From: Burkholderiales bacterium
GTDB taxonomy: Bacteria; Pseudomonadota; Gammaproteobacteria; Burkholderiales; Usitatibacteraceae
Length of the DNA: 64,000 nucleotides
Direction: 5' to 3'
Assembly: GCA_033764435.1 (NCBI GenBank)
Contig: JANRIX010000010.1
Coordinates: 163,220 to 227,219, forward strand
The notes under the pieces are model-generated. The model searched no databases. It had not been told where the DNA came from and saw nothing but the letters and a program-made list of their open reading frames with translations. Of this stretch, positions 14,994 to 38,116 are shown one piece after another. Both the position numbers and the translations under genes were made by a program. The first letter of the stretch is position 1. Every line of letters begins with the position of its first letter.

Positions 14994-15012
14994 GTAAGGG
15001 GTGGCAGAGAGT

Positions 15013-15024
15013 GCGAATATTCGC
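15013..15024. repeat. GCGAATATTCGC palindrome copy (perfect)
   Basis: 12/12, extended TGCGAATATTCGCA; intergenic. Confidence 0.95.
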
Positions 15025-15078
15025 AAGCGCCAGCGCGTCGGCGGCGACGGTTACGTAACGGAATGTCATGATTCTGCA

Positions 15079-15090
15079 GCGAATATTCGC
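15079..15090. repeat. GCGAATATTCGC palindrome copy (perfect)
   Basis: 12/12; intergenic. Confidence 0.95.
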
Positions 15091-15159
15091 AATTGGCAGC
15101 ATCAAACCGCCTCACAGCGCAATTCGCTGCCGGCGTCACAAAAAGCCACCAGAAAACAC

Positions 15160-15192
15160 CAGAACCCTACAAAGGTTGATGGGGTTTCTTCT
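15160..15192 (+). terminator. terminator-like hairpin + T-tract (member of the ccctaY..tgggg hairpin family)
   Basis: aaccctacaaaggttgatggggtttcttctc; related to the hairpins at 3343 and 6233. Confidence 0.35.
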
Positions 15193-15590
15193 CGCCAGCT
15201 TAGACATACTGTCTCGTAACGTTGCCTTCATCGATGCCCTGCGCAAGAATGACCCGTAAATGATTGACATCGTCCTGGACGACTTTGCCAATGCGCTGGC
15301 CGAACTGCTGACGACGAACGAGATGTCGATAACGCCCGATACACAATCAATCGCCGACGACGGCGAGCCGACTTGACCAGCGACGCAATGTGACTCGATC
15401 AATCCAAAGCCGAGCAAATGCGCATCACTCTCAGAACGAGGATGAAGAACCAGCTCGTCCAGGCTGTCGTGAAGGGGCGAGGGATGAGATGACAGAGGAA
15501 GAGGAGCGGCATGCGGGGCATGAAGACGTTAGGTCAAGAGCGGCGATTGTGATCGCCAAACCATAGTCCTACAAGGCATTTGACGGTATC

Positions 15591-16595
15591 TTGGCATTGC
15601 ATAGCCCAATGCCGCGCTCATTGAACCGACCGAAAGAAATCAAGGTCGTTGCAGGAAAGGGGAAATACTTGTTTAACTCGCAGATTGGTCCACTAGACGG
15701 CCCTTCCTGGGAGGCGCTGTGCCAAGAGGCCCTCAAGAGACGGCACCATTCCGAGGGATACCAAGAAATGAAAGCGTCCCCCGGCGACTATGGGATTGAT
15801 GGCTTCACACTGGATTCTGGACTTGCCTTTCAGTGCTATTGCCCGGAAAAACACTACTCTCGGCCAGAGCTGTATGAAAAGCAGAGAGACAAAATCACAG
15901 AAGACGTAGGGAAGCTACGGACGCATCAGAAGCCAATTCTCGACAGAGTTGGGAGCAATAAGTTCTCGAAATGGATATTCCTTACCCCTGAGTATGACAA
16001 GAATGATCTTCTCGCCCACGCAAGAAGCAAAGAAGTAGAAGTTCGAAGCTGGAACCTACCATTCCTAACTTCGGATTTTCAGATAGTAATAAGGGATGCC
16101 TCTGACTACAGAACTGAAATCAATGAGATCCGCGTCCTCAGTCTGGAGCCCCTCTACTTTGAGGATGAAGTCCCGACCCTAAAAACGATTCAGGGCGAGA
16201 AGGAAGAGCACGAAAAAAACATCGAGAGGAAGTCCAAGGCCCGACTTGCAGGGGCCGAACAAAGCCCTCGCTATTCAACTCGACTGGAGCAACTGCGTCA
16301 GAAGACTCTGGAGAGTTTTTTTGAGTACGAAGATTTCTTTCGAAAAATTAGTGACGACGCGCCGTTGATTTACGTCAGGCTAGTTCGACTAATAAATGAG
16401 TATGAAGAGATGGTGGTCGAGTCCTCCACCACATGGTCGGGAACAGCACAGGACCTAACTGAAAAAATTCGTGATGACCTAGCTTCTAGGATTTCTCAAG
16501 AGCTTGCGCCACAGATATCAGCGGCCACTGCAATGAAGATAGCCAGAATAATGACTGCGCGATGGATAGCTGTTTGCGAGTTGGACTATGGATAG
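15591..16595 (+). CDS. Lamassu/ABC-3C-like system, putative effector subunit (LmuA-like)
   Basis: 334-aa ORF in a ~45% GC block, first of three translationally coupled genes (overlaps 16588/17046). Weak PD-(D/E)xK-like pattern (GDYGIDGF...QCYCPEK). Assignment rests on position and architecture. Confidence 0.4.
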   Translation: MALHSPMPRSLNRPKEIKVVAGKGKYLFNSQIGPLDGPSWEALCQEALKRRHHSEGYQEMKASPGDYGIDGFTLDSGLAFQCYCPEKHYSRPELYEKQRDKITEDVGKLRTHQKPILDRVGSNKFSKWIFLTPEYDKNDLLAHARSKEVEVRSWNLPFLTSDFQIVIRDASDYRTEINEIRVLSLEPLYFEDEVPTLKTIQGEKEEHEKNIERKSKARLAGAEQSPRYSTRLEQLRQKTLESFFEYEDFFRKISDDAPLIYVRLVRLINEYEEMVVESSTTWSGTAQDLTEKIRDDLASRISQELAPQISAATAMKIARIMTARWIAVCELDYG

Positions 16596-17049
16596 CCCAA
16601 TCGTCGAACTTGTATTCCGGCGCCAGCCATCGGCGGTGATTCCAGAACACAGACCACTTTACAAGATCTCTCAGCTTGCGCTGATCCTAAATGTCTCATC
16701 CCGCGCTGGACGATCTAAAGTTTCGCGATTGCACTTATTGAACTGGGCGCTAAAGAAGAGATCGCGACAACTGTTGCTAGAACGTGCTGCTGAAAGCGGC
16801 ACACTTAGGATTCAAGCTTGGGGCTTCGATCCCATTCTTGCATTTGCAATTCGCTTTGCACTCGCTGACGGCATTGTTGCAGATACGTCGACCGGTTATG
16901 AGCTCACGGAGAAAGGAAGATCCTTTGCCATGGCCATTCTGAAAGATCCCACTTTGTTGGCGAGCGACAAAGTTTTTCTAGAAAGAATCGGAAAAGGCAT
17001 TACGGAAACAATGGTGGATGCTGTGGCAAATGACTGGGACATTAGATGA
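16588..17049 (+). CDS. Lamassu/ABC-3C-like system, small middle component (LmuC-like)
   Basis: 153-aa ORF overlapping both neighbours by 8 and 4 nt; no catalytic motifs. Confidence 0.4.
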   Translation: MDSPIVELVFRRQPSAVIPEHRPLYKISQLALILNVSSRAGRSKVSRLHLLNWALKKRSRQLLLERAAESGTLRIQAWGFDPILAFAIRFALADGIVADTSTGYELTEKGRSFAMAILKDPTLLASDKVFLERIGKGITETMVDAVANDWDIR

Positions 17050-19091
17050 AGATAAATGCGATTCGGGTCAAGATTTCGGCAACCGAAGGTGACTTTGGAT
17101 TTAATTTCCAGTTTGGTAAGAATCTGACAATCATTAGAGCCAACAACACAAGCGGTAAGAGCACTCTAATCAACTGCTTGCTATACGGCCTGGGCATGGA
17201 AGAGCTGATTGGGGGCAAGGGGGAAAGGACGCTCTCGTCCGCGGTCAAAGACGCGTTCGATCACGGCCAAAAGAAGATTCAGGTTCTTAGCTCTGAAGTA
17301 TGGCTTGAGATTGAAAACTCTCAAGGTGCAATAGTCACACTTCGGAGAGCCATCAAAGATAAATCCCGCGACTCAAAGCTAATCGAGATTTATCCCGTCG
17401 CATTTCTGACAGAGGGCGAAACGCCAATCACCTCAACTCCAACATATTTGCACGATCCCGGAAGCGCCAAGAACCAAGGGGGCTTCTATCATTACTTGGA
17501 ACAGTTCCTCCAACTCTCACTGCCGAGAGTACCCACAGTTTCTGGCTCCGAAACGAAGCTCTACATTCAATGCGTTTACACAGCTTGTGCTGTAGAACAA
17601 AAAAGAGGTTGGACTGACTACCTAGCAAACATGCCATTTTTTGGTATCAGAGATGCGAGAACCAGGGTTGTTGAATACATTTTGGGACTCGATGTATTTG
17701 AAACAAATTCTGAGAGAAATAGACTCAACCAAGAGTCAATTGAGATCGATAAGGACTGGAGATCATTGGTTGAGCAAATGAATTCGAAGGGGCTTCGAAT
17801 CGGCGCAAAGTTAGTCAACCTTCCAGCTACGCCGACAGTGTCGTTCGATCCCAATCTCGTGGCGTATGTCTTCCCACAGGGCCAAGCGACCATCACATTG
17901 TCAGAGCATCTCTCGGCGCTTCGATCGCGACACGCAAGTCTCGAGGCTCAAAGAGATCGATTCCGCTCGAACGCCAGCCAAGAATCCATACAAGCAGTCG
18001 ACTCCACAACAGAGGAGTTGAGCCAGCTGAATCTTTTTCACGGCCGCTCTCTTGCTTATGTCGAGCAACTAAAGATTTCACTCTCTCAGTATGGCGAGCA
18101 ACTGGAGGAGACAAACGAAGATCTGTCTAGGAATAAAACTGCCGGGAAGCTACAAGAGCTAGGTGCAAAATTCGAATTCAGCACCAGCTCCAACATCTGC
18201 CCAACTTGCGATCAACCGATCAATGAATCTCTGATACCAAAGGCAATCTCAGGACCGCAAATGGATCTTGCGTCGAACATTCGATATCTCGACAGTCAGA
18301 GGAAGATGCTCGAACGGCAGATTCTTGGAATACAACAGAGCTTAGCTGATGCCGAATCGAACACGAAGGCGTTTGAAGCTCAGATTCGGACCAAGACGCA
18401 GTTTCTTGCCAACCTAAGGGGAGACATTTCAACTGGAGCTGCAGAGTCTCGGGCTGTTGCCCGAGAGCAAGCCCAAATTGAACTTGAAATAGAAGCATTG
18501 GAGAGATTGGTTTCGGATCTCGCCCCGTCCTTAAATCGGATAAACGCACTAGCCCTGAAACTAAGAGAAAACCAAGCATTTCGCAACACTCTTCCTAAGT
18601 CGATCTACACGGAATCTGACGAAAGCAAGATTCGAATTTTTGAGAAGCAGTTTCGAGCAAATGCCGGCTCCTTTGGATACGAAAGCGCTCCAATCAATGA
18701 GATTGGCATTTCCTTTGAGAAACTTACTCCGAGTTGGGCAGACATCGAATTGCGCGAAGTGATTGACCGAGACATTCAAGCGGAATCAAGTGCCAGCGAT
18801 TTTATAAGATTGATCTGGAGCTACTTACTAGCACTTCACCAGACTTCGGCGCTGAGCGCGGTTGACGGTCGACATCTCGGCCAGCTAATTCTCGACGAGC
18901 CTGGACAGCACTCAATGGCTGCCCCGAGCCAGCACGCCCTACTTAAGCAATTAGCCGCTGAGAAAGAGCTTCAAAGCATTGTGTCAGCCTCGTTTGATGA
19001 GACCGAGGAGGTATTCCTGAAGGCAACCGCAGGCATTGCGTTTGAATTAATTCGCTGGGAGGGAAAGCTGATTCAACCACTCGATGCGTAA
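17046..19091 (+). CDS. SMC/Rad50-like ABC ATPase with coiled-coil and CxxC zinc-hook (LmuB-like)
   Basis: Walker A IIRANNTSGKST at the N-terminus. Long coiled-coil with ICPTCDQPINESLIP (CxxC hook) at its centre. C-terminal Walker B QLILDEPGQH. Confidence 0.7.
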   Translation: MKINAIRVKISATEGDFGFNFQFGKNLTIIRANNTSGKSTLINCLLYGLGMEELIGGKGERTLSSAVKDAFDHGQKKIQVLSSEVWLEIENSQGAIVTLRRAIKDKSRDSKLIEIYPVAFLTEGETPITSTPTYLHDPGSAKNQGGFYHYLEQFLQLSLPRVPTVSGSETKLYIQCVYTACAVEQKRGWTDYLANMPFFGIRDARTRVVEYILGLDVFETNSERNRLNQESIEIDKDWRSLVEQMNSKGLRIGAKLVNLPATPTVSFDPNLVAYVFPQGQATITLSEHLSALRSRHASLEAQRDRFRSNASQESIQAVDSTTEELSQLNLFHGRSLAYVEQLKISLSQYGEQLEETNEDLSRNKTAGKLQELGAKFEFSTSSNICPTCDQPINESLIPKAISGPQMDLASNIRYLDSQRKMLERQILGIQQSLADAESNTKAFEAQIRTKTQFLANLRGDISTGAAESRAVAREQAQIELEIEALERLVSDLAPSLNRINALALKLRENQAFRNTLPKSIYTESDESKIRIFEKQFRANAGSFGYESAPINEIGISFEKLTPSWADIELREVIDRDIQAESSASDFIRLIWSYLLALHQTSALSAVDGRHLGQLILDEPGQHSMAAPSQHALLKQLAAEKELQSIVSASFDETEEVFLKATAGIAFELIRWEGKLIQPLDA

Positions 19092-22249: not shown

Positions 22250-22396
22250 GCAAATATTCGCACTGCCTACACAAATTGCTCCGTCGTTCCCGCGCAGGCG
22301 GGAACCTAAGTTGGTGGGAACAACTTGCTGAACTTGGGTTCCCGCCTGCGCGGGAACGACGAAGTCGGAGGCGGTTTCGCGGCTGCGAATATTCGC
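22250..22396. repeat. palindromic REP/MITE-like element (core 22283-22361) flanked by GCGAATATTCGC copies
   Basis: Left arm cgtcgttcccgcgcaggcgggaacctaagtt and right arm aacttgggttcccgcctgcgcgggaacgacg are reverse complements (1 mismatch). Each arm is itself a hairpin. Flanked by gcaaatattcgc (22250, 11/12) and gcgaatattcgc (22385). Confidence 0.6.
22385..22396. repeat. GCGAATATTCGC palindrome copy (perfect)
   Basis: 12/12, extended TGCGAATATTCGCA; intergenic, right end of the REP-like element. Confidence 0.95.
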
Positions 22397-31364: not shown

Positions 31365-31400
31365 GAAAAAGAAAAGCCCGCCGACTTTCGTCGACGGGCT
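31365..31400 (-). terminator. rho-independent terminator of the SPFH gene (minus strand)
   Basis: Minus-strand stem gcccgtcgac/gtcggcgggc with loop gaaa, followed by ttttctttttc; 34 nt after the stop at 31434. Confidence 0.6.
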
Positions 31401-31433
31401 CAGGTTGAGGTTTATAAACACACTGGCGAAGCC

Positions 31434-32567
31434 CTAGCGGATCTTTACCAGATCCTTCAGCACGCCATCCAGGCCACCGAACACGGAGATCTTGTCGATC
31501 TTCTCGGTTACCTTTTCCAGCGTCTCCAGTTCCTTCAGGCGCAGTGCGGTCGGGTTGTCTTCCATCACCTTGGCGGTGTTCAGCAGGGAACGCGTTGCCG
31601 CGGTTTCCTCACGACGACGGATCACGTTGGCTTGCGCCACCTTCTCCGCCTCCACCACGCGCGCCAGGATGGTCTTCATCTCGCCGGGCAGGATGATGTC
31701 CTTCACACCCACCGACTCGACTTCCAGACCGAACCCGGCCACACGACGCTGGATGTGCTCGCTCACCACCTGGTCGATGACGTGCTTGTCTTCCAGCAGT
31801 TCATCCAGGGTGCGCGTACCCACCGCGGCGCGGAGCCCGAACTGGAGTTCCTTGTACAGGTAGTCCAGCGGCTTGGACTGCTTCGCGAACGCGACCAGCA
31901 CGTCGGTGATGCGGTAACCCGCCGTCAGGTTTACCCGCAGGGACACCTTGTCCTTGGTGAGGATTTCCTGACCGGCCACCTCCAGCACTTGCAGGCGGAG
32001 ATCCACCGGCAACGCCGAGAGTTCACGCGTGTACTGCCAGAAGCCATGCACACCAGCCTCCAGCACGCGATCCACCTTGCCATCCACGTACAGCACGGCC
32101 ACGTGGTACTGCGGCACGTGCATGATGAAGAGGCCTTCCAGACCGGCCACTTTCTTCACCTTGCCGGTGACAGGCGCCAGCTTGGCCAGGAGCTTCTTGT
32201 CCACGTCGAACGTGTCGGCAATGGAAAGCTTTTCCAGGCGGATGTCGATGAATCCCTTCCAGTACAGGCGGCGGGTGTTGGGTGCCAGCACTTCCACGAG
32301 CACGTTGTCCTCGAAACGCAGGCCGACTTCATCGGCACCGGTCTCCAGCACATGGAACTCGCGCTTGGCGATTTCCGGCTCCCACTTCAGCAGGTACTCG
32401 GCCAGCTTGTGATCGAACAGCGGCTTGGCCAGCGGGAACTTCTCGATCGACAGACGAAAGAACGGGTCGAAATGCGAATATTCGCCCGGCTCCAGGACTT
32501 GAACGAAATCTCCCTTGTTGAAGAGGAGAGCGCGTTCATCCTTCTTGATGTGAAACTTTTTCAGCAT
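31434..32567 (-). CDS. SPFH/band-7 (stomatin/prohibitin-like) domain protein
   Basis: 377 aa from M59 of ORF 31434..32741, RBS aggaagacg. SPFH core ...ILTKDKVSLRVNLTAGYRITDVLVAFAKQ...DIILPGEMKTILARVVEAEKVAQANVI. Confidence 0.85.
   Translation of the reverse strand: MLKKFHIKKDERALLFNKGDFVQVLEPGEYSHFDPFFRLSIEKFPLAKPLFDHKLAEYLLKWEPEIAKREFHVLETGADEVGLRFEDNVLVEVLAPNTRRLYWKGFIDIRLEKLSIADTFDVDKKLLAKLAPVTGKVKKVAGLEGLFIMHVPQYHVAVLYVDGKVDRVLEAGVHGFWQYTRELSALPVDLRLQVLEVAGQEILTKDKVSLRVNLTAGYRITDVLVAFAKQSKPLDYLYKELQFGLRAAVGTRTLDELLEDKHVIDQVVSEHIQRRVAGFGLEVESVGVKDIILPGEMKTILARVVEAEKVAQANVIRRREETAATRSLLNTAKVMEDNPTALRLKELETLEKVTEKIDKISVFGGLDGVLKDLVKIR
32474..32485. repeat. GCGAATATTCGC palindrome copy (perfect)
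   Basis: 12/12; in the SPFH gene (minus), reads EYS (frame checked). Confidence 0.95.
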
Positions 32568-32987
32568 GATGCGTCTTCCTTTCTTGGGTTGAAAAATGGC
32601 GGGGGGTTTGTGTCCACTGCCGGGGTGTTCACGCGGGCGCTCGGGAGCGCCCGGGTGAATCGGGTTGCCCCCACGTCTCGCGACGTGAGAACGAAATCGG
32701 GTGTGGGGCCACCTCCCGACCGGACGCGGGCTGTCGCGCAAACAGATGTCCCACGCGAAACGCTGCGTGACGACACCCGTGAGCGCGACCCGTGTTGCAC
32801 CGGCGGGAGACAGGCCGCGCCGCAGACGTGACCACGCATCCCCAGACTGCGGAACACGTCGTCGAATCGTTGGCTGTTGCCTGTTCGCGCCGGCACGCGA
32901 GCGGTGCCGTGGCGTCCGGAGCGGTGTGCAATGTTCCGCACATGAGATGGCCCCGGGTACTGCATGAAGTCCTGGTTAAGGACTGCT

Positions 32988-33058
32988 GATTTCCAGCGGG
33001 AGTCGAACCCGCACTGATCGATTACAAGTCGATTGCTCTACCAATAAGCTATGGATTG
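32988..33058 (-). tRNA. tRNA-Thr(TGT)-like gene with defective acceptor stem (possible pseudogene or partial copy)
   Basis: Minus-strand D-arm TAGCTTATTGGTAGAGC, anticodon arm ATCGA-CTTGTAA-TCGAT (anticodon TGT) and T-arm GCGGG-TTCGACT-CCCGC are canonical. The 5' strand CAATCCA pairs only 4/7 with the 3' strand TGGAAAT, and no CCA is encoded. Confidence 0.4.
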
Positions 33059-33130
33059 GCGATGATCGTGGGAGTCGAACCCACGACAGCCGGTGGGTAC
33101 CGGTGCTCTACCAGACTGAGCTAGATCATC
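33057..33130 (-). tRNA. tRNA-like gene (Trp-tRNA-like body) with a truncated 4-nt anticodon loop
   Basis: Perfect acceptor GATGATC/GATCATC, discriminator G and encoded CCA; D-arm GCTC-AGTCTGGTA-GAGC; T-arm GTGGG-TTCGACT-CCCAC. The anticodon region is CCGGT-ACCC-ACCGG, a 4-nt loop 3 nt shorter than canonical. Confidence 0.4.
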
Positions 33131-33254
33131 AGGTATTCAACACCGCCCGCATCGCGGCATACGGCGCACCAATTTTCAGGCGTGCCGCACCAGGGAGGCA
33201 TGCAGAACCTCGCCCGCTGTCGATGCGTTTGGAGAAGAATTGGGTTGGAGCGAT

Positions 33255-33266
33255 GCGAATATTCGC
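33255..33266. repeat. GCGAATATTCGC palindrome copy (perfect)
   Basis: 12/12, extended TGCGAATATTCGCA; intergenic, left flank of the REP-like element. Confidence 0.95.
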
Positions 33267-33283
33267 AACACTCCGAAGAGGAC

Positions 33284-33356
33284 CGTCGCTCCGGCGCAGG
33301 CGGGAGCCTAAGCTGAACTTGTATGAACTTGGGCTCCGGCCTGCGCCGGAGCGACG
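33284..33356. repeat. palindromic REP/MITE-like element (paralog of 22283-22361)
   Basis: Arms cgtcgctccggcgcaggcgggagcctaagct and aacttgggctccggcctgcgccggagcgacg are near reverse complements; ends 3 nt before the HNH gene stop. Confidence 0.55.
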
Positions 33357-33359
33357 GGT

Positions 33360-33917
33360 TTATCGGTGGCGTGAACTCGCCGGCAGCGCAGCGCGCAGAA
33401 ACTCCATCTGATCCGCCAACACGCGGCGGCCGGACAGAATCATCCACTCGTTCCGCACCGGTCGATACGGCACGTACAAGAGCGGCATGCGCGCTTCCTC
33501 CGGCGTGCGCGCACCCTTGCGCGTGTTGCAGCGACGACACGCGGTGACCAGGTTGGTCCACGAATACTCGCCACCGCGCGACTCGGGCAGGATGTGCTCG
33601 GCCGTCGGGTCCTCCGCATGCTTGCCGCAATAGGCGCACAGGCAGTGGTCACGACGGAACAGCGTGGCGCGCGTCGGGCGCGGCGCGAACAGCGGCGCCT
33701 TCAGCGCATGGCCGCGCACGAAAATGATGCTGCGCACTTCAATCTGCGAACGCAGACCCGACACGGCGTTCACACCGCCACGCAGCGTGGCGATGCGGGT
33801 GCCGGCCGAGTCGTCGATCACATGGCCGCCGGCATAGAAGCCGGCAGCCTCTTCCACCGTCAACCATGAGCGCGCGTGCCCATGGCTGTCGATGGCCAAA
33901 GCGTCCGGGTAAGACAT
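33360..33917 (-). CDS. HNH endonuclease
   Basis: HCLCAYCGK...EHILPESRGGEYSWTNLVTACRRCNTRKG (HNH beta-beta-alpha-Me motif with zinc-ligand cysteines); strong SD caggaggtgac upstream. Confidence 0.8.
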   Translation of the reverse strand: MSYPDALAIDSHGHARSWLTVEEAAGFYAGGHVIDDSAGTRIATLRGGVNAVSGLRSQIEVRSIIFVRGHALKAPLFAPRPTRATLFRRDHCLCAYCGKHAEDPTAEHILPESRGGEYSWTNLVTACRRCNTRKGARTPEEARMPLLYVPYRPVRNEWMILSGRRVLADQMEFLRAALPASSRHR

Positions 33918-34160
33918 TTGTCACCTCCTGTGGGCCTCGTCTGCCGTCAAAGCATCTGAGGAAGTTTGGAAAATGGAACAAGGCATCTCGCCTCATTCCG
34001 GAATGGGTGCCCCCGCATCCCGACAAGCGGGACACGGGGACGGGTACTACAGCCTCGGCCCCTTCACAGATTGGGCGTTGGCGATCGGGGTAGGCATGGA
34101 TCACCTCCTTTCAGTTGCGGGTAGCGCGTGCACCTCATCCCGATGATGAGGCTTGGGACG

Positions 34161-35360
34161 CTATCCCTTGACACAAAGCACTTGCTTCAACGTATGGACG
34201 ATTTCCACCAGGTCGGCCTGCGCGGCCATCACGGCGTCGATGTCCTTGTAGGCGGCGGGAATCTCGTCGATCACGCCACCATCCTTGCGGCACTCCACCC
34301 CGTCGGTCTGGCGCGCCAGATCCTCAACGGTGAAGTTCTTGCTCGCCGCGGTACGCGACATGCGACGTCCCGCACCGTGCGAACACGAGTTGTACGCCTC
34401 CGCATGTCCCTTCCCGCGCACGATGAAGCTCTTCGCCCCCATGCTGCCGGGGATGATGCCGAGCTGATCCTTGCGCGCCGAGACGGCACCCTTGCGGGTG
34501 ATCCACATCGAACGCCCGAAGTGGGTTTCCTTCTGCACGTAGTTGTGGTGACAGTTCACCGCTTCCTGCGTGATCGAGAACTCCTTCGGGATCACGTGAC
34601 GCAGGGACTTCATGACCAGATGCATCATGAGATCGCGGTTGGTGGCCGCATAGTCCTGCGCCCACAGTAGCGCCTCGACGTAGGCTTCAAACGGCTCGCT
34701 GCCTTCATCCAACCAGGCAAGATCCCGGTCCGGCAGATGCACGTCGCGCTTGGCCGCTTCGGTCTTGGCCATCTCGATGGCCAGCGTACCGATGGTGTTG
34801 CCGACGTTGCGCGAACCGGAGTGCAGCATCACCCACACCGACTGCGCCTCGTCGAGACACAGTTCGATGAAGTGGTTGCCGCCACCGAGCGTACCCAGCT
34901 GGGTACCGAGACGCGTCTTGTTGAAGCGTCCCAGGCGGTCCAGCAGACGCAGCTTCCAGAAGCGCTCATCAAGTGCGTCGATGCGGCGCTTCAGTGCAAT
35001 GCCTTCCAGCCCGTCATGCGTGGGGTCCAGCGTTTCCTTGTGCGCATGAACGCCGACAGGGACCGAGCGCTCGATCGCATGGCGAATATTCGCAAGCGAG
35101 TCCGGCAGGTCGGACGCCTTCAGCGACAGGCGCACAGCGCACATGCCGCAACCGATATCCACGCCGACGGCGGCGGGAATGATGGCAGCCTCGGTGGGGA
35201 TGATGGTCCCGACGGTTGCGCCCTTGCCCAGGTGCACGTCCGGCATGATGGCGACGTGCCCAGCGAGAATGGGCAGCGATGCCATGTTGCGAATCTGGGC
35301 GAGCGCCGCGTCCTCCACGGGCACACCGCTCACCCACATTCGGGTGTTTTGAACTTCCAT
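34161..35360 (-). CDS. rtcB: RNA-splicing ligase RtcB
   Basis: GHVAIMPDVHLGKGATVGTII, NHFIELC, HSGSRNVG, HNYV, SCSHGAGRRMSR (RtcB metal/GTP-binding signature blocks). Start at M41 of ORF 34161..35480, RBS aaggag. Confidence 0.9.
   Translation of the reverse strand: MEVQNTRMWVSGVPVEDAALAQIRNMASLPILAGHVAIMPDVHLGKGATVGTIIPTEAAIIPAAVGVDIGCGMCAVRLSLKASDLPDSLANIRHAIERSVPVGVHAHKETLDPTHDGLEGIALKRRIDALDERFWKLRLLDRLGRFNKTRLGTQLGTLGGGNHFIELCLDEAQSVWVMLHSGSRNVGNTIGTLAIEMAKTEAAKRDVHLPDRDLAWLDEGSEPFEAYVEALLWAQDYAATNRDLMMHLVMKSLRHVIPKEFSITQEAVNCHHNYVQKETHFGRSMWITRKGAVSARKDQLGIIPGSMGAKSFIVRGKGHAEAYNSCSHGAGRRMSRTAASKNFTVEDLARQTDGVECRKDGGVIDEIPAAYKDIDAVMAAQADLVEIVHTLKQVLCVKG
35082..35093. repeat. GCGAATATTCGC palindrome copy (perfect)
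   Basis: 12/12; in rtcB (minus), reads ANIR (frame checked). Confidence 0.95.
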
Positions 35361-35450
35361 GGTTTTTCTCCTTGGTGTGATTGTGAAGCAGATTGCGGGC
35401 GCGCTTGTAGACAAGTAGGCCGCGCGCTTCATCGCGGCCCCGCATGTAAG

Positions 35451-35537
35451 TGGTACCCACCGTCCGATTCGAACGGACATGCCCTTGCGGGCGCCTGCTT
35501 CTGAGGCAGGGACGTCTACCTATTCCGCCAGGTGGGT
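35451..35537 (-). tRNA. tRNA-Leu(CAG)
   Basis: Manual fold: acceptor ACCCACC/GGTGGGT; anticodon arm CCTGC-CTCAGAA-GCAGG; long variable arm; T-arm GTCCG-TTCGAAT-CGGAC; discriminator A; CCA encoded. Confidence 0.8.
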
Positions 35538-35549
35538 GTTGATGGGTGA

Positions 35550-35626
35550 TGGCAAGGGTGGTGAGATTCGAACTCACGATGACTGGCTTCAAAGGCCAGT
35601 GCCTTCGGCCGCTTGGCGACACCCCT
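35550..35626 (-). tRNA. tRNA-Gln(TTG)
   Basis: Acceptor AGGGGTG/CACCCTT (one G-U pair); anticodon arm CTGGC-CTTTGAA-GCCAG; T-arm GTGAG-TTCGAAT-CTCAC; discriminator G; CCA encoded. Confidence 0.8.
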
Positions 35627-35637
35627 GGTTGCAACTT

Positions 35638-35712
35638 GGTGGACCCGGCAAGACTTGAACTTGCGACCTCGTGGGTAAGAGCCACTTGCTCTGACGACTG
35701 AGCTACGAGTCC
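35638..35712 (-). tRNA. tRNA-Lys(CTT)
   Basis: Acceptor GGACTCG/CGGGTCC; D-arm GCTC-AGTCGTCA-GAGC; anticodon arm AGTGG-CTCTTAC-CCACG; T-arm GCAAG-TTCAAGT-CTTGC; CCA encoded. Confidence 0.8.
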
Positions 35713-35718
35713 GATGAA

Positions 35719-35872
35719 TGGCAGGACATAGGGGACTCAAACCCCTGACATCCGGATAGAAAATTTGCAGCCTCATCGCAAATTTCAGTGGAGGCTAACT
35801 TGCGAAGCAAGTTAAGCGCCATGGCGCGGCCGAAACTACAATCCGGCGCTCTATCGGCTGAGCTAATGTCCC
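35719..35872 (-). tRNA. tRNA-Tyr(GTA)-like gene interrupted by an ~70-nt hairpin-rich insertion between the anticodon arm and T-arm (probable pseudogene or unusual variant)
   Basis: 5' part GGGACAT-TA-GCTC-AGCCGATA-GAGC-G-CCGGA-TTGTAGT-TTCGG. Then 84 nt containing the palindromes gcgccatggcgc, aacttgcttcgcaagtt and gcctc..gaggc. Then T-arm AGGGG-TTTGAGT-CCCCT (non-canonical T-loop), 3' acceptor ATGTCCT, discriminator G and CCA. Confidence 0.35.
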
Positions 35873-35873
35873 A

Positions 35874-35952
35874 TGGCCTCGCATGATGGAATCGAACCAC
35901 CGACCTCCGCGTTCGTAGCGCGGCGCTCTCATATCCACTGAGCTAATGCGAG
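35874..35952 (-). tRNA. tRNA-Arg(ACG)
   Basis: Acceptor CTCGCAT/ATGCGAG; D-arm GCTC-AGTGGATATGA-GAGC; anticodon arm CCGCG-CTACGAA-CGCGG; T-arm GGTGG-TTCGATT-CCATC; discriminator G; CCA encoded. Abuts the Tyr-like gene with a 1-nt spacer. Confidence 0.75.
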
Positions 35953-35960
35953 ATGAAAGT

Positions 35961-36050
35961 TGGTAGTCGGAACGCGCGAGTTTGGCAAAATCGTGAACGC
36001 GTGACCTCCCGGTTATCAACCGGGTGCTCTCCCCGCTGAGCTATCCGACA
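35961..36050 (-). tRNA. tRNA-Ile(GAT)-like gene with an expanded ~21-nt T-loop (probable pseudogene or variant)
   Basis: TGTCGGA-TA-GCTC-AGCGGGGA-GAGC-A-CCCGG-TTGATAA-CCGGG-AGGTC is canonical to the variable loop. The T-stem ACGCG/CGCGT encloses TTCACGATTTTGCCAAACTCG instead of a 7-nt loop. Confidence 0.4.
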
Positions 36051-36176
36051 CTTGATCGAAAGTCTGGCTCTGCACTCCGACAACCGGATCCAGGCGACGC
36101 GAGTCGCGGTAATCCCATGGACGGTGCGCGCCGCCCAAGTGGTCGCCGAAGTGCAGAGTGAGACAGACGAATGAAG

Positions 36177-36253
36177 TGGGGTGAACGACCGGACTCGAAC
36201 CGGTATCTGCCTGGGTCACATCCAGGGGCTCTGCCAATTGAGCTACGTCCTCC
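36177..36253 (-). tRNA. tRNA-His(GTG) with G-1
   Basis: G-1 pairs with discriminator C. Acceptor GAGGACG/CGTTCAC has one A-A mismatch. Anticodon arm CCTGG-ATGTGAC-CCAGG; T-arm ACCGG-TTCGAGT-CCGGT; CCA encoded. Confidence 0.75.
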
Positions 36254-36256
36254 ATT

Positions 36257-36268
36257 GCGAATATTCGC
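36257..36268. repeat. GCGAATATTCGC palindrome copy (perfect)
   Basis: 12/12; 4 nt upstream of the tRNA-His 5' end (minus strand). Confidence 0.95.
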
Positions 36269-36547
36269 CGCGCGCCGGGGCCAAACGGCCCCGGGCCCGA
36301 CTGTTGACCGCTTTCCGCTGCGCGTGCGGAAGAGCGGAGGCATGCCCGCAAATTCGGTGAGGTGCGCCGCGTACAGCGCACGAACATGCCTGCAACGAAC
36401 CCGCTGTCGCCGCCGGGCAGGCCAACGCCTGCCCGGCACGACATCCGGTGAGGGGTTCCAATCTGACTTCACCGGGTTCTTCCCCGACCGGGGTCTTCTT
36501 TCATCGCTGCAACCATCTGCGCAGCAACAATCGCGGCCGGGAGAATG

Positions 36548-36622
36548 TGGCGTCCCCATGCGGAGTTGAACCGCAGTTGCCGGGCTGAAAACCCGGAGTC
36601 CTGACCGCTAGACGATGGAGAC
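36548..36622 (-). tRNA. tRNA-Glu(TTC)
   Basis: Acceptor GTCTCCA/TGGGGAC; anticodon arm CCGGG-TTTTCAG-CCCGG; T-arm TGCGG-TTCAACT-CCGCA; ends GGGGACGCCA as in enterobacterial tRNA-Glu. Confidence 0.8.
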
Positions 36623-36632
36623 AAAAAAGGGG

Positions 36633-36703
36633 AACACGTGGGTGGAATCGAACCACCAATGCCGGATTTGCAGTCCGGTGCCTTGCCGTTCGGCCACACG
36701 TGT
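36633..36703 (-). tRNA. tRNA-Cys(GCA)
   Basis: Acceptor ACACGTG/CACGTGT; 3-bp D-stem; anticodon arm CCGGA-CTGCAAA-TCCGG; T-arm GGTGG-TTCGATT-CCACC; discriminator T; CCA not encoded. Confidence 0.7.
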
Positions 36704-37880
36704 GTTGAATAAAACCGGCCTGAGACTACAGCCGGATCACCGAACCCTTCGCGGCATCATCAGCGCGTTGCAACACGCGCCGTTCTCCGCTTGTCCACCT
36801 GCCCCGGCTGTGCGCCACGAGCAGGTCGATCGGCATGTCTGCGTTTGTTGACGGAGCCGCATTGCTCCGGTCACGTCCGACTACTCGACGATTCACCTAC
36901 CGTGAACCTTGCGGGCTCCAAAGGGGGATTACCCCACCGTGCGGCTTGGCATCGACACCGGCAACCTTGCGGGTCGCCCGGCATGCCTGCATTCGTGTTG
37001 CCACGTGCAGGATTAAGACATTTGTTCATCGGACGCCGGCAGCGTCTTTGCGTTGTTCATGGTTTCGGAATGATTCTCAGGCCATTCCTCCTGCACGACG
37101 TGCGCTGCCAGCGGTTGCCATCACCTTTTGGATGACGGAATGCCGCACGCCGCATGACGTTCCTTGCGGTACTTGTCGGTGTTTCGCGATCCGGGCTCGG
37201 CATGACTACCAGTGACGGCGCATGCGCGGCCCGTGCCGCTGACACTGCGGCAAAGCCCTTCCTTGCGGGTCGGACCCTGCCACTACCTTTCACCTTCCAC
37301 GTTCGCGATCGGGTTTGTGCGGAGGACGGCACCACCCGTTTCCTTCCCGCGCCACCGTTTCCCCGGCAGTTGCCCACCGGAGCGGTTCGACACAGTCACC
37401 GCACGATCACTTCACGCTTCGCGCCGGCCGGAATCGGACGACGCACCCTTCAACGAGGGCAGGTTCGGCTTGCCTGGATTGACCACGGGTTACCCCGTGG
37501 CGCCGGTGTGCAGTACACCGGCTTTGCGCGTGTCGCCACGCGTTGTCGGCGCCAAGCCGCCATCACCTCTGCCGGCCGAAGCCGGAATCGATGAGTTTCT
37601 TCGGTGCGAATGTTTGCACCATGCCCCAGTTTCCTCGTCGTGAAGAAACTCGAACATGGCGCCTCCGCCGGACGAGTCCGGCGAAGGCACCGACACACAC
37701 ATCGGCTGCGCGGCCGATGCGCGTGTTGAACCAGACGAGTGGCAGTCATCGAGAGCCGCGCGCACAGCTGGCGATGATTGCCTGTTCGTCATCAAAAAAT
37801 CACTTCCCGAATTGTTAAAGAGCAGGCTGTTTCCCGATGGACACAGCGGTGTTGCGGGTGAAACGGTTGAAAAAGACAAC

Positions 37881-37910
37881 AAAAAACCCGGAGTCTTTCG
37901 ACATCCGGGT
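37881..37910 (-). terminator. terminator-like hairpin with flanking A/T runs
   Basis: cccggagtctttcgacatccggg, preceded on the plus strand by aaaaaa (T-run on the minus strand, downstream of small ORF 37943-38116). Confidence 0.4.
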
Positions 37911-37942
37911 TCTTGGTGGTGCTGCTTTGCTGAGAGCTGGCG

Positions 37943-38116
37943 CTACGCGCTCACACTCTCCCACTCGGAACCCGGATTCTGCGGATCAAGGCCATAGCCC
38001 ATGCGCTTGCCAAATGCGGACTGTTCAAGACCGAACAGGACGCAAATGGACAGGGCCATGGCCGGGGCTTTTGCCCGTGCCGCGGAGGTCCAGTTATGTG
38101 TCGTGTTGAAGGTCAT
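37943..38116 (-). CDS. small ORF (57 aa), hypothetical
   Basis: MTFNTTHNWTSAARAKAPAMALSICVLFGLEQSAFGKRMGYGLDPQNPGSEWESVSA with RBS agga 10 nt upstream and a terminator-like hairpin downstream; below ORF-track cutoff; weak. Confidence 0.25.
   Translation of the reverse strand: MTFNTTHNWTSAARAKAPAMALSICVLFGLEQSAFGKRMGYGLDPQNPGSEWESVSA

What the first reader, a model, noticed from the sequence alone, without database searches (positions are those of the whole stretch)
32988..36703. tRNA array (11 tRNA/tRNA-like genes) flanking an RtcB RNA ligase - HNH endonuclease pair; several tRNAs are structurally aberrant
All on the minus strand. The array is Cys, Glu, His, Ile-like, Arg, Tyr-like, Lys, Gln, Leu (35451-36703), then rtcB, a mini-ORF and an HNH nuclease, then two further tRNA-like genes (33057-33130, 32988-33058). 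RtcB repairs tRNAs cleaved by anticodon nucleases. tRNA arrays and variant tRNAs are used by mobile elements and phages to escape tRNA-targeting defences. Four members deviate from canon: a Tyr-like gene with a 70-nt insertion, an Ile-like gene with an expanded T-loop, a Trp-like gene with a 4-nt anticodon loop, and a Thr-like gene with an unpaired acceptor. The block could be a tRNA-repair/anti-toxin island, or a decaying tRNA cluster invaded by REP elements.
Basis: partly seen in the sequence, partly recalled or inferred. Interest (0 to 1): 0.65.

Follow-up and report, generated by a model that had tools for sequence, protein, structure and literature searches.

The report
tRNA array, GOLLD RNA and RtcB repair operon
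The flagged tRNA cluster is real, but it is only the middle of a 6.5-kb single-strand block that joins a giant GOLLD RNA, nine spare tRNA genes, an intact RtcB RNA ligase, an HNH nuclease, a conserved pair of anticodon-less tRNA look-alikes and a membrane SPFH protein, which is most likely a fast-changing tRNA supply-and-repair unit.

Summary
Eleven tRNA or tRNA-like genes, rtcB, a mini-ORF and an HNH gene lie on the minus strand where stated.

The four odd tRNAs fall into two classes:
- **Recent lesions.** Two carry insertions that a close relative lacks. One is 14 nt in the Ile T-loop.
- **A conserved RNA.** The two after HNH are a tandem tRNA-like RNA with compensatory base changes. It sits directly upstream of a 378-aa SPFH gene next to RtcB in many Proteobacteria, usually in RtcR-controlled rtc operons.

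A GOLLD RNA of about 934 nt abuts tRNA-Cys (Rfam 143.7 bits, E 1e-39). The SPFH gene and its terminator lie downstream.

Relatives show rapid turnover. GOLLD is full, a remnant or absent; tRNA sets differ; RtcB is present or absent. No RtcR or RtcA lies in the window.

Best reading: an rtc-type RNA-repair operon that has gained a tRNA array, GOLLD and HNH of the kind seen with phages. It would supply and reseal tRNAs under tRNA-damaging stress. The parts are known; the combination and the tandem tRNA-like RNA appear undescribed.

The parts
37734..37841 (-). Near-invariant 108-nt leader or promoter region upstream of GOLLD and the array. It follows the terminator of an upstream small ORF at 37876-37912.
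   Evidence: Almost identical in window, L001 and L084, although the flanks are only 80-85% identical. Coordinates. The promoter role is inferred.
36717..37650 (-). GOLLD large non-coding RNA. The conserved 3' domain is 36717-37155; the variable 5' domain runs to about 37650.
   Evidence: RF02032 matches over the full model (1-416), 143.7 bits, E 1.2e-39, against a gathering score of 150. The 943-nt stretch is absent from L001. Fold z-score is -6.1. A homologue in L105 carries a tRNA in its linker, and L084 holds a remnant.
36631..36703 (-). tRNA-Cys(GCA), with an A1-U72 first pair and U73.
36548..36622 (-). tRNA-Glu(UUC), with CCA encoded. Absent from L001.
36177..36253 (-). tRNA-His(GUG), with encoded G-1, C73 and CCA. 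It has one A2/A71 mismatch.
35961..36050 (-). tRNA-Ile(GAU) gene with a net 14-nt insertion in the T-loop (35980-35993). Probably a pseudogene.
   Evidence: Rfam gives only 33 bits. The L001 orthologue is canonical, with T-loop TTCAAAT and 65.7 bits.
35874..35952 (-). tRNA-Arg(ACG), with a C1-G72 first pair and CCA.
35719..35872 (-). Asp(GUC)-type tRNA gene interrupted by a unique 78-nt insertion (35761-35838) between positions 34 and 35, or 35 and 36, of the anticodon.
   Evidence: Alignment with the L001 tRNA-Asp at 8143-8218. The insertion has no other copy in the window or in the loci.
35637..35712 (-). tRNA-Lys(CUU)
35550..35626 (-). tRNA-Gln(UUG), with an A1-U72 first pair.
35451..35537 (-). 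tRNA-Leu(CAG), class II, with an A1-U72 first pair.
34161..35360 (-). rtcB, a 3'-phosphate/5'-OH RNA ligase of 399 aa. It starts 90 nt after tRNA-Leu.
   Evidence: PF01139, E 3e-128. The metal-binding and GMP-histidine motifs DIGCG, GNHF, HSGSR, HHN and SHGAGR are all present.
34047..34112 (-). 16-codon mini-ORF preceded by a 15-nt perfect complement of the 16S rRNA 3' end. It is a relic duplicate of the HNH start region.
   Evidence: Both this stretch and the true HNH start map to the same HNH start site in L105. Alignment; coordinates.
33360..33917 (-). HNH endonuclease of 185 aa: an N-terminal beta-rich domain plus a zinc-finger HNH domain of the Cas9/IscB/McrA type.
   Evidence: Pfam, PDB sequence matches, AF2 model with pLDDT 91 and fold search.
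33283..33358 (-). REP-like long hairpin (-63 kcal/mol). It is absent from L001.
   Evidence: A second copy lies at about 22281-22361.
33131..33267 (-). Conserved region upstream of the tandem tRNA-likes. It contains motifs (YCYGGTGC and RYATGCCG) shared across Proteobacteria.
   Evidence: About 98% identical to L001. The motifs sit at a fixed distance from the tRNA-like start in 20 loci. A promoter role is inferred and not resolved.
33060..33130 (-). Tandem tRNA-like unit 1. It has acceptor, D and T arms, G73 and CCA, and a 5-bp stem with a 4-nt loop in place of the anticodon loop.
   Evidence: Rfam tRNA 54 bits. Model R1 and covariation.
32989..33058 (-). Tandem tRNA-like unit 2. The D and T arms are invariant and the 'anticodon' loop is variable (UGU here). 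In this copy the acceptor stem is reduced to 4 pairs.
   Evidence: Rfam tRNA 55.7 bits, local match 4-67. Comparison across loci.
31434..32570 (-). SPFH/Band-7 (slipin) protein of 378 aa, the constant partner of the tandem tRNA-likes.
   Evidence: PF01145. tblastn finds it in 24 of 83 RtcB loci, always just after the tandem. Many Betaproteobacteria hold copies 72-83% identical.
31374..31401 (-). Intrinsic terminator that closes the block.
   Evidence: 12-bp stem followed by a T run. It is the only minus-strand terminator-like site between 38400 and 31300.

Best explanation
The block at about 37841-31374 on the minus strand is a composite RNA-maintenance unit.

**Core.** Its core is a variant of the proteobacterial rtc RNA-repair operon: the RtcB ligase, a tandem pair of tRNA-like RNAs and an SPFH/slipin protein. 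The usual regulator RtcR and the cyclase RtcA are not in the window.

**Accreted parts.** Onto this core the lineage has gained components known from phage-derived tRNA arrays. These are nine closely spaced tRNA genes, a GOLLD RNA of about 934 nt placed directly upstream of them, and an HNH endonuclease.

**Likely working (inferred).**
1. Transcription starts in the conserved leader upstream of GOLLD. A second start may lie in the conserved region before the tandem tRNA-likes. It reads through to the single terminator after the SPFH gene.
2. RNase P and 3' processing release GOLLD, the tRNAs and the tRNA-likes, and leave the rtcB-HNH and SPFH messages.
3. The array tRNAs top up the isoacceptors (His, Arg, Lys, Glu, Gln, Leu, Cys) that are lost when anticodon nucleases or toxins cut tRNA.
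4. RtcB reseals the halves, which carry 2',3'-cyclic-phosphate and 5'-OH ends.
5. The tRNA-likes cannot decode. They may act as tRNA mimics, for example decoys, sensors or scaffolds, in the same position that Y RNAs occupy in the Salmonella rtc operon.
6. HNH either spreads or reshuffles the tRNA genes at the DNA level, or trims RNA.

**Shown:** the identity and intactness of the parts, their linkage, their conservation and their turnover. **Inferred:** co-transcription, induction by tRNA damage, and the roles of GOLLD, HNH, SPFH and the tRNA-likes.

The Ile and Asp-type genes are recent insertional casualties of a locus in flux.
For: **Parts.** The genes and RNAs are identified. The RtcB catalytic motifs are intact. 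All parts share one strand, and the only terminator-like site comes after the SPFH gene.

**Tandem tRNA-likes.**
- 36-39 predicted pairs, 23 of them with compensatory changes.
- Model R1 finds the pair directly upstream of an SPFH homologue in Burkholderiales, Xanthomonadales/Lysobacterales and Pseudomonas.
- In Undibacterium (L047) the order is rtcR, then the tandem, SPFH, a PNKP-type phosphatase, RtcB, RtcA and RlaP.
- In P. aeruginosa an SPFH gene is reported inside the rtc locus (PMC13086221).

**Arrays at the same place.** Arrays of up to 19 tRNA genes lie between RtcB and the tandem-SPFH pair, or just upstream of that pair. This holds in L004, L090, L091/L094, L096, L103, L105 and L107; L104 and L108 hold shorter runs of three and two.

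**GOLLD.**
- Full-model match with E 1e-39 and fold z-score -6.1.
- The 3' domain is about 88% identical between the window and L105, although that whole aligned stretch (GOLLD and the downstream spacer) is only 72% identical.
- L105 carries a tRNA in the linker, as described for known GOLLD RNAs (PMC12286853).

**HNH family.**
- It recurs next to tRNA or tRNA-like genes and RNA-repair genes.
- L086 reads Metallophos, RNA ligase, RtcB, HD, HNH, tRNAs; L087 is similar.
- A homologue lies inside a 9-tRNA cluster of jumbo phage SCTP-2.

**Literature precedents.**
- GOLLD with tRNA arrays and HNH in Mycobacterium (PMC6582537).
- Cyanobacterial long arrays neighbouring HNH and rtcB, co-induced by translational stress (PMC8421152).
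- The rtc operon is induced by cleaved tRNAs (PMC7790460).
Against: - No expression data are available, so the transcription unit and the promoters are inferred. The consensus scan found no sigma-70 promoter, and I could not fix a sigma-54 promoter.
- RtcR and RtcA are absent from the 64 kb, so induction by damaged tRNA is not supported here.
- Two of the nine array genes are broken. RtcB is missing from relatives L084 and L105, and GOLLD from L001. None of these parts is therefore indispensable, and some may be drifting.
- Whether the array tRNAs duplicate housekeeping genes cannot be checked from one window.
- No tRNA-targeting nuclease was found nearby.
- About half-identical HNH homologues also stand alone in other Burkholderiales, without tRNAs or RtcB.
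Confidence: 0.55

Rival explanations
1. The block is the decaying relic of a phage- or island-borne tRNA array. The tRNAs, GOLLD and HNH are neutral passengers being eroded. Only the old chromosomal genes (SPFH, the tandem tRNA-likes and perhaps rtcB) still function, and they are unrelated to the array.
For: - Insertions disrupt the Ile and Asp-type genes.
- L084 holds only a GOLLD remnant.
- RtcB is absent from L084 and L105.
- The mini-ORF is a relic duplication.
- tRNA content differs in every relative.
- The array tRNAs are 83-100% identical between the window and L001, about as diverged as the neighbouring DNA.
Against: - Seven of the nine array tRNAs have regular cloverleaves with the expected discriminator bases, six of them with CCA encoded.
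- The GOLLD 3' domain is far better conserved than its surroundings and is strongly structured.
- The leader is almost invariant.
- Arrays recur at exactly this position, just upstream of the tandem tRNA-likes, in many independent lineages. That argues for retention rather than chance residue.
Confidence: 0.25
2. It is an ordinary housekeeping tRNA gene cluster that happens to sit next to the organism's single chromosomal rtcB.
For: - The flanking genes are ordinary chromosomal genes: amidohydrolase, DUF1415 and an FAD oxidoreductase.
- No integrase or phage genes were found among the flanking ORFs scanned.
- The anticodons fit a GC-rich host's common codons (an inference from the anticodon list).
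- GC content is only slightly below the surroundings.
Against: - The set of tRNAs differs between relatives that share the same chromosomal site. L001 has Ala-Pro-Phe where the window has GOLLD, and it lacks Glu.
- The first base pairs are unusual: A1-U72 in Cys, Gln and Leu, and C1-G72 in Arg.
- Two members are broken.
- GOLLD and HNH are hallmarks of horizontally moving arrays (PMC6582537).
Confidence: 0.08
3. The insertions are introns. Bacterial tRNA genes would be split by short intervening sequences, cut out by a nuclease (possibly HNH) and rejoined by the adjacent 'tRNA-splicing ligase' RtcB.
For: - RtcB is the tRNA-splicing ligase of archaea and animals (established knowledge).
- Two tRNA genes next to rtcB carry insertions, one of them in the anticodon loop.
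- The 78-nt insert is predicted to pair with the anticodon region.
Against: - The insertions are absent from the orthologous genes in L001, which also has rtcB and HNH.
- The site is inside the anticodon (34/35 or 35/36), not at 37/38.
- I could draw no bulge-helix-bulge motif from the fold.
- 78 nt is too short for a group I intron (established knowledge).
- HNH nucleases leave 5'-phosphate and 3'-OH ends, which RtcB cannot join (established knowledge).
- The insert is a single copy.
Confidence: 0.04

Closest known systems
Mycobacterial tRNA arrays with GOLLD RNA and an HNH endonuclease (Behra et al. 2019, PMC6582537; Morgado et al. 2020, which I could not read)
   Same: - GOLLD lies directly beside or inside a same-strand tRNA array with an HNH gene in the cluster.
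- Presence is patchy between close relatives.
- A tRNA sits in the GOLLD linker, seen here in relative L105.
   Different: - The host is a GC-rich betaproteobacterium (Burkholderiales-like), not an actinobacterium.
- The array is short, with 9 genes rather than about 30.
- It is fused to an rtc-type operon (RtcB, tandem tRNA-likes, SPFH).
Cyanobacterial long tRNA arrays (the Anabaena trn operon) with neighbouring HNH and rtcB (Santamaria-Gomez et al. 2021, PMC8421152)
   Same: - A tRNA array is linked with an HNH endonuclease and the RtcB ligase.
- That work proposes a role in surviving translational or tRNA-cleavage stress.
   Different: - No GOLLD is reported there.
- Those arrays are longer (up to 43 genes), and the Anabaena trn operon is plasmid-borne.
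- Their regulation uses direct repeats and TrcR, which was not examined here.
- They have no SPFH or tandem tRNA-likes.
RtcR-RtcB-RtcA RNA-repair operon of E. coli and Salmonella (rsr-yrlBA-rtcBA; Hughes et al. 2020, PMC7790460), and the P. aeruginosa rtc locus with the SPFH protein PaFlo8 (PMC13086221)
   Same: - The RtcB ligase is present.
- A tRNA-mimicking non-coding RNA is encoded in the operon, YrlA there and the tandem tRNA-likes here.
- SPFH is a partner, as in Pseudomonas.
   Different: - The window has no RtcR, RtcA or Ro60.
- The tRNA-likes are full cloverleaves in tandem and do not match the YrlA model.
- A tRNA array, GOLLD and HNH have been added.
Phage tRNA clusters with embedded homing-type endonucleases and tRNA-repair enzymes (T4 Pnkp/Rnl1, T5-like tRNA arrays; from my own knowledge)
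   Same: - Spare tRNAs are combined with an RNA ligase to counter tRNA-cutting defences.
- A nuclease gene lies among the tRNA genes. An HNH homologue lies in the tRNA cluster of jumbo phage SCTP-2.
   Different: - Here the block is chromosomal, with no phage genes nearby.
- It is inherited at one site in several relatives.

Membership tests
GOLLD RNA (Rfam RF02032) | Score at or above Rfam's gathering threshold of 150 bits | tested here: not met
   The score is 143.7 bits, 6 bits short. The match covers the whole model (1-416) with E 1.2e-39.
GOLLD RNA (Rfam RF02032) | Conserved 3' domain, including the long-range pseudoknot and multi-stem architecture | tested here: met
   The alignment to the consensus keeps the bracketed pseudoknot and most helices. 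The domain is about 88% identical to L105, and the few changes are mostly pair-preserving.
GOLLD RNA (Rfam RF02032) | Large size (over 800 nt in many members) with a variable 5' half, and a linker that can hold a tRNA | tested here: met
   The block is 943 nt relative to L001. Its z-score is -6.1. L105 has a tRNA-Asn in the linker.
GOLLD RNA (Rfam RF02032) | Location beside tRNA genes, often in phages or prophages | tested here: met
   It ends 13 nt before tRNA-Cys. There is no prophage context and no relative in the phage collection.
GOLLD RNA (Rfam RF02032) | Self-assembly into a 14-mer nanocage | not testable with these tools
   This is known only from cryo-EM of one metagenomic member (PMC12286853).
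RtcB RNA ligase | RtcB fold, with the metal-binding Cys/His/Asp residues and the GMP-accepting histidine | tested here: met
   PF01139, E 3e-128. The motifs align with Thermus and Pyrococcus RtcB.
RtcR-regulated rtc operon | Divergent rtcR (CARF, sigma-54 activator) and rtcA next to rtcB | tested here: not met
   tblastn with RtcR and RtcA from L047 finds nothing in the window. Both are present in about 35 other RtcB loci.
RtcR-regulated rtc operon | Shared accessory parts (SPFH/slipin gene and a leader tRNA-like RNA) | tested here: met
Horizontally acquired tRNA array (long array) | Many same-strand, closely spaced tRNA genes of different specificities | tested here: met
   Nine genes lie in 1.25 kb, plus two tRNA-likes. 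This is at the short end of the range. Relatives hold up to 19.
Horizontally acquired tRNA array (long array) | Patchy and variable between close relatives | tested here: met
   Window compared with L001, L084 and L105
Horizontally acquired tRNA array (long array) | Redundant with a full housekeeping tRNA set elsewhere in the genome | not testable with these tools
   Only 64 kb of the genome is available.
HNH homing endonuclease | HNH catalytic motif with a zinc finger | tested here: met
   CxxC...EH...N...CxxCN.
HNH homing endonuclease | Evidence of mobility: presence or absence at otherwise identical sites | tested here: inconclusive
   It is present in the window, L001, L005, L073, L084, L090, L102 and L105, and was not found in L004, L071, L091 or L107. 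Contexts also include stand-alone chromosomal copies.
Bacterial Y RNA (YrlA, RF02553) | Match to the YrlA model and a neighbouring Ro60 (rsr) gene | tested here: not met
   YrlA does not hit 32989-33130. The only weak hit (27 bits) spans two ordinary tRNAs. No Ro60 gene was seen. Covariation supports two separate cloverleaves.
Archaeal or eukaryal-type tRNA intron | Bulge-helix-bulge motif at the exon-intron junctions, usually at position 37/38 | tested here: not met
   The insertion lies at 34/35 or 35/36. No such motif appears in the fold.
REP-type repeated palindromic element | Multiple copies in the genome | tested here: inconclusive
   The hairpin at 33283-33358 has one related copy at about 22281-22361. 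The 78-nt and 14-nt insertions have none.

The most novel reading that the evidence does not exclude
Two linked claims are not excluded by my evidence.

1. The tandem, non-decoding tRNA-like pair followed by a slipin/SPFH gene may be an undescribed, widely conserved non-coding RNA component of proteobacterial rtc RNA-repair operons. It would be the counterpart of the tRNA-mimicking Y RNA YrlA, and may have been overlooked because it is annotated or filtered out as 'tandem tRNA genes'.
2. In this lineage a GOLLD RNA is genetically wired into the same unit as the RtcB ligase and spare tRNAs. The GOLLD nanocage of unknown function would then work in tRNA damage, protection or repair, not in phage biology as such.
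Probability: 0.3. Interest if true: 0.8.

Novelty: new variant of a known kind. Interest (0 to 1): 0.6.

Why it matters
**GOLLD.** GOLLD is one of the largest and most ornate bacterial RNAs. It is now known to form a 14-mer cage, yet it has no known function. Here it sits in a bacterial chromosome in one co-directional block with an intact tRNA ligase, spare tRNAs and tRNA mimics. That points to tRNA damage control as a testable function. Natural comparators also exist: relatives with a full GOLLD, a remnant or none, and with or without RtcB.

**Tandem tRNA-likes.** The conserved tandem tRNA-like RNA next to an SPFH gene in rtc operons suggests a missing RNA component of a widespread RNA-repair system. 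Its SPFH partner and its signals are poorly understood.

**Annotation.** 'Aberrant tRNA' calls near rtcB should not be dismissed as pseudogenes.

Tried and rejected
- **Exact-protein look-ups.** The window's RtcB and HNH found nothing. The organism itself is not in the collection.
- **YrlA/Y RNA identity of the tRNA-likes.** Rejected (covariation).
- **Intron reading of the insertions.** Rejected.
- **REP origin of the 78-nt and 14-nt insertions.** Rejected.
- **The palindrome GCGAATATTCGC as an operator or enhancer site for the block.** Rejected. It occurs 39 times all over the window, inside genes too.
- **Sigma-54 promoter in front of the tandem tRNA-likes.** A GG-N10-GC match exists in the window, L001 and L056, but the spacing fails in most other loci. 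This is left open.
- **Sigma-70 consensus scan.** No hit.
- **GOLLD relatives.** blastn against known phages found none. Other Rtc-linked arrays gave no Rfam hit.
- **Metagenome scan with the leader word.** Nothing found.
- **N-terminal domain of HNH.** The fold search gave no match beyond the HNH domain.
- **Literature.** Searches found no paper linking GOLLD with RtcB, or describing tRNA-like pairs in rtc loci. The library is incomplete: Morgado 2020 and Burroughs & Aravind 2016 could not be read.

Full report
**1. What is at the coordinates**

ARAGORN calls eight tRNA genes on the minus strand between 33057 and 36703. The Rfam tRNA model finds eleven matches at or above its threshold. In transcription order they are:
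- Cys(GCA)
- Glu(UUC)
- His(GUG)
- a weak Ile(GAU)-like match (33 bits)
- Arg(ACG)
- a match with an 81-nt gap in the anticodon loop
- Lys(CUU)
- Gln(UUG)
- Leu(CAG)
- after two protein genes, two abutting tRNA-like sequences at 33060-33130 and 32989-33058

The proteins are an RtcB ligase (34161-35360; PF01139, E 3e-128) and a 185-aa HNH endonuclease (33360-33917). RtcB keeps every catalytic motif known from solved RtcB structures.

**2.

A relaxed Rfam scan showed a match to the GOLLD RNA family starting 13 nt upstream of tRNA-Cys. The match covers the whole 416-position model (36717-37155), scores 143.7 bits against a gathering score of 150, and has E 1.2e-39.

Comparison with a close relative (L001; HNH 95% identical, same chromosomal site) shows that a 943-nt stretch, 37650-36708, is present only in the window. 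L001 has tRNA-Ala, Pro and Phe there instead. That size fits GOLLD, which has a conserved 3' half and a variable 5' half (PMC12286853). The stretch folds far better than shuffled controls, with z = -6.1.

Two further relatives confirm that it is a maintained RNA:
- **L105/L106.** These hold a homologue whose 3' domain is about 88% identical to the window's, whereas that whole aligned stretch (GOLLD and the downstream spacer) is only 72% identical. They carry a tRNA-Asn exactly in the GOLLD linker, a known GOLLD trait.
- **L084.** This holds only a remnant (model positions 304-415, 30.5 bits).

Upstream of GOLLD lies a 108-nt stretch (37734-37841) that is almost invariant among the window, L001 and L084. 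It follows the terminator of an upstream small ORF. I take it as the leader or promoter of the unit. That is an inference.

**3.

The two tRNA-likes after HNH are followed by a 378-aa SPFH/Band-7 gene (31434-32570) and then a strong intrinsic terminator (31401-31374). This is the only minus-strand terminator-like site in the whole stretch from 38400 to 31300.

**4. The four aberrant tRNAs are of two kinds**

*Recent lesions.*
- In L001 the orthologous Ile gene is canonical (65.7 bits, T-loop TTCAAAT). The window copy has a net 14-nt insertion in the T-loop.
- The 'Tyr-like' gene is orthologous to an Asp(GUC) gene in L001. The window copy has a 78-nt insertion between anticodon positions 34 and 35, or 35 and 36. 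A shared T makes the exact site ambiguous.
- GUA is read only because of that insertion.
- The insert has no other copy in the window or in any fetched locus. No bulge-helix-bulge motif can be drawn around it.

*A conserved RNA.*
- The two tRNA-likes after HNH are present in L001 with nearly identical bodies but completely different 'anticodon' loops.
- The same abutting pair occurs next to RtcB in distant Proteobacteria.
- Alignments of 6 and of 11 examples give two full cloverleaves with 36-39 pairs. Of these, 23 show compensatory double changes.
- A covariance model built from six copies (R1) finds the pair in Burkholderiales, Xanthomonadales/Lysobacterales and Pseudomonas, and in metagenomic contigs.
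- Unit 1 keeps acceptor, D and T arms and an encoded discriminator plus CC(A). Its anticodon arm is a stem capped by 3-9 nt, often 4. In some lineages unit 1 shrinks to an acceptor/T-arm minihelix.
- Unit 2 has invariant D and T arms and a loop of 4-8 nt whose 'anticodon' changes freely: CAU, GAU, UAU, AAU, AUU, ACU, UGU and others.
- These RNAs cannot be ordinary decoders, yet their tRNA shape is under selection.
- In the window copy, unit 2 has lost two acceptor pairs relative to L001 (AA in place of TT).

**5. The tRNA-like pair belongs to rtc RNA-repair operons**

In 24 of 83 RtcB loci from species-representative genomes, a homologue of the window's SPFH protein (43-68% identical outside L001) lies near RtcB, and wherever the tandem pair was mapped the SPFH gene follows it directly.

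The typical arrangement, for example in Undibacterium (L047), is a divergent rtcR, then the tandem tRNA-likes, SPFH, a PNKP-type phosphatase, RtcB, RtcA and RlaP. An SPFH gene inside the P. aeruginosa rtc locus has been noted (PMC13086221).

The window contains no RtcR or RtcA. In its clade (RtcB 64-89% identical) the order is instead RtcB, then a tRNA array and/or HNH, then the tandem and SPFH:
- L004: RtcB, 19 tRNAs (counting the tandem pair), SPFH.
- L091/L094: RtcB, 13 tRNAs (counting the tandem pair), SPFH.
- L090, L096, L103, L104, L107: array, tandem, SPFH.
- L005: tRNA-Gly, RtcB, HNH, tandem, SPFH.
- L073: two tRNAs, HNH, tandem, SPFH, RtcB.
- L084 and L105: GOLLD, array, HNH, tandem, SPFH, with no RtcB.

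The constant core is therefore the tandem tRNA-likes plus SPFH. The SPFH protein is 72-83% identical across many Betaproteobacteria. tRNA arrays, RtcB, HNH and GOLLD come and go around this core.

**6. The HNH gene**

Its C-terminal half is a zinc-finger HNH domain closest to those of IscB, Cas9 and McrA. Its N-terminal beta-rich domain has no detectable relative.

The family is large, with 1950 proteins at E ≤ 1e-5, and appears in four settings:
1. Beside the tandem tRNA-likes, as here.
2. In cassettes reading Metallophos, RNA ligase (PF09414), RtcB, HD, HNH, tRNAs (L086, L087).
3. Inside a nine-tRNA cluster of jumbo phage SCTP-2, with another copy in Ralstonia jumbo phage RsoM2USA.
4. Alone in Burkholderiales chromosomes (L002, L003).

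HNH genes inside tRNA arrays are reported for Mycobacterium (PMC6582537). In cyanobacteria, the Anabaena HNH gene is co-induced with the array (PMC8421152). I cannot decide whether it moves tRNA genes at the DNA level or acts on RNA.

The mini-ORF between rtcB and HNH is a diverged duplicate of the HNH ribosome-binding site and first codons. Both copies map to the single HNH start in L105. It is most likely a scar of the rearrangement that placed rtcB there.

**7. How it most likely works**

*Shown.*
- All parts share one strand, with short spacers and a single terminator at the end.
- RtcB is intact.
- Seven array tRNAs have regular cloverleaves.
- GOLLD and the tRNA-likes are under structural constraint.
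- The locus turns over quickly.

*Inferred.*
- One or two transcripts are processed by RNase P and 3' nucleases into GOLLD, tRNAs, tRNA-likes and mRNAs.
- The array supplies isoacceptors that anticodon nucleases commonly destroy. From my own knowledge, colicin E5 cuts His and Asp tRNAs, colicin D cuts Arg, PrrC cuts Lys, and zymocin-type toxins cut Glu, Gln and Lys.
- RtcB reseals halves that carry cyclic-phosphate and 5'-OH ends, as shown for enterobacterial RtcB (PMC7790460).
- The non-decoding tRNA-likes act as tRNA mimics, a role proposed for the YrlA Y RNA in the same paper.
- The roles of GOLLD and SPFH remain open.

The main rival is that the array, GOLLD and HNH are eroding passengers. 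I give it about one chance in four, because arrays recur at this exact position in many lineages and the GOLLD core is conserved.

**8. Comparison with what is known, and novelty**

Each part is known:
- GOLLD beside tRNA arrays with HNH, in Mycobacterium.
- tRNA arrays neighbouring HNH and rtcB, in cyanobacteria.
- rtc operons with a tRNA-mimicking RNA (Salmonella) or an SPFH gene (Pseudomonas).

The combination in one block, in a betaproteobacterial chromosome without RtcR or RtcA, is a new variant. I found no description of the tandem tRNA-like RNA of rtc operons in Rfam (only the generic tRNA model hits it) or in the searchable literature. Notably, the original Y-RNA survey discarded hits overlapping tandem tRNA genes (PMC4201824). 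The library is incomplete, so prior description cannot be excluded.

**9. Limits**
- No expression data are available, and the rest of the genome is not available.
- The organism is unidentified. The best relatives are Burkholderiales and Betaproteobacteria metagenome-assembled genomes.
- The promoters are not located.
- The GOLLD score is 6 bits under Rfam's curated threshold.

Noticed in passing
whole window (e.g. 836, 3018, 31082, 32474, 33255, 35082, 36257, 60662): The 12-nt palindrome GCGAATATTCGC occurs 39 times (31 exact) against 0.22 expected, in both coding and non-coding DNA. It occurs 10 times in relative L001 and never in 82 other proteobacterial loci. It looks like a lineage-specific highly iterated palindrome or an uptake-signal-like word.
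   Followed up: partly
window 15591-19091 (+), in the low-GC island at about 15000-19000 (GC 0.48 against 0.64): A Lamassu anti-phage defence pair: LmuA (E 8e-38) and LmuB (E 4e-105). It is the only defence system I saw in the window. It lies 14 kb from the tRNA/RtcB block and is not an anticodon nuclease.
   Followed up: partly
window 34098-34112 (-): GAAAGGAGGTGATCC is a 15-nt perfect complement of the 16S rRNA 3' end, by my own knowledge of that sequence. It is unique in the window and sits in front of the relic mini-ORF just after rtcB. It is homologous to the HNH ribosome-binding site of L105. This is curious because RtcB is reported to religate the 16S 3' end in E. coli.
   Followed up: partly
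window 33283-33358 (-) and about 22281-22361: A long, perfect REP-like hairpin (-63 kcal/mol) right after HNH. It is absent from L001 and has a related second copy 11 kb away.
   Followed up: partly
window 36254-36547 (-) and 36051-36176 (-): Unannotated spacers of 294 nt and 126 nt inside the array, on either side of tRNA-His. They are conserved at 72-87% in L001, L084 and L105. They contain GC-rich hairpins but match no Rfam family. They could be degraded tRNAs or another RNA.
   Followed up: no
window 33131-33267 (-) and the equivalent stretch in 20 loci: Two short motifs, YCYGGTGC and RYATGCCG, precede the tandem tRNA-likes in Burkholderiales, Xanthomonadales and Pseudomonas. The second lies about 25 nt before the tRNA-like 5' end. 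They may be promoter elements, but the spacing does not fit sigma-54 in most loci.
   Followed up: partly
L086 75-4804 and L087 48-2729: A compact cassette reading metallophosphatase, ATP-dependent RNA ligase (PF09414), RtcB, HD_4 and HNH (58% identical to the window's), flanked by tRNA genes. It is a second type of HNH-linked RNA-repair and tRNA module.
   Followed up: no
L105 5909-5982: The tRNA-Asn embedded in the GOLLD linker of L105 is 81% identical over 57 nt to the window's tRNA-like unit 1. This hints that the linker tRNA and the tandem tRNA-likes are related.
   Followed up: no
window 37943-38116 (-) with terminator 37876-37912 (-): A small ORF of 57 codons with a hydrophobic stretch. 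Its C-terminal part is conserved at the protein level in L001 and L084. A hairpin terminator follows it, just upstream of the GOLLD leader.
   Followed up: no
window 35761-35838 (-): The unique 78-nt insertion sits at or next to the 34/35 bond of a GUC anticodon. From my own knowledge, colicin E5-type nucleases cut this bond in Asp, His, Asn and Tyr tRNAs. The origin of the insert is unknown.
   Followed up: partly
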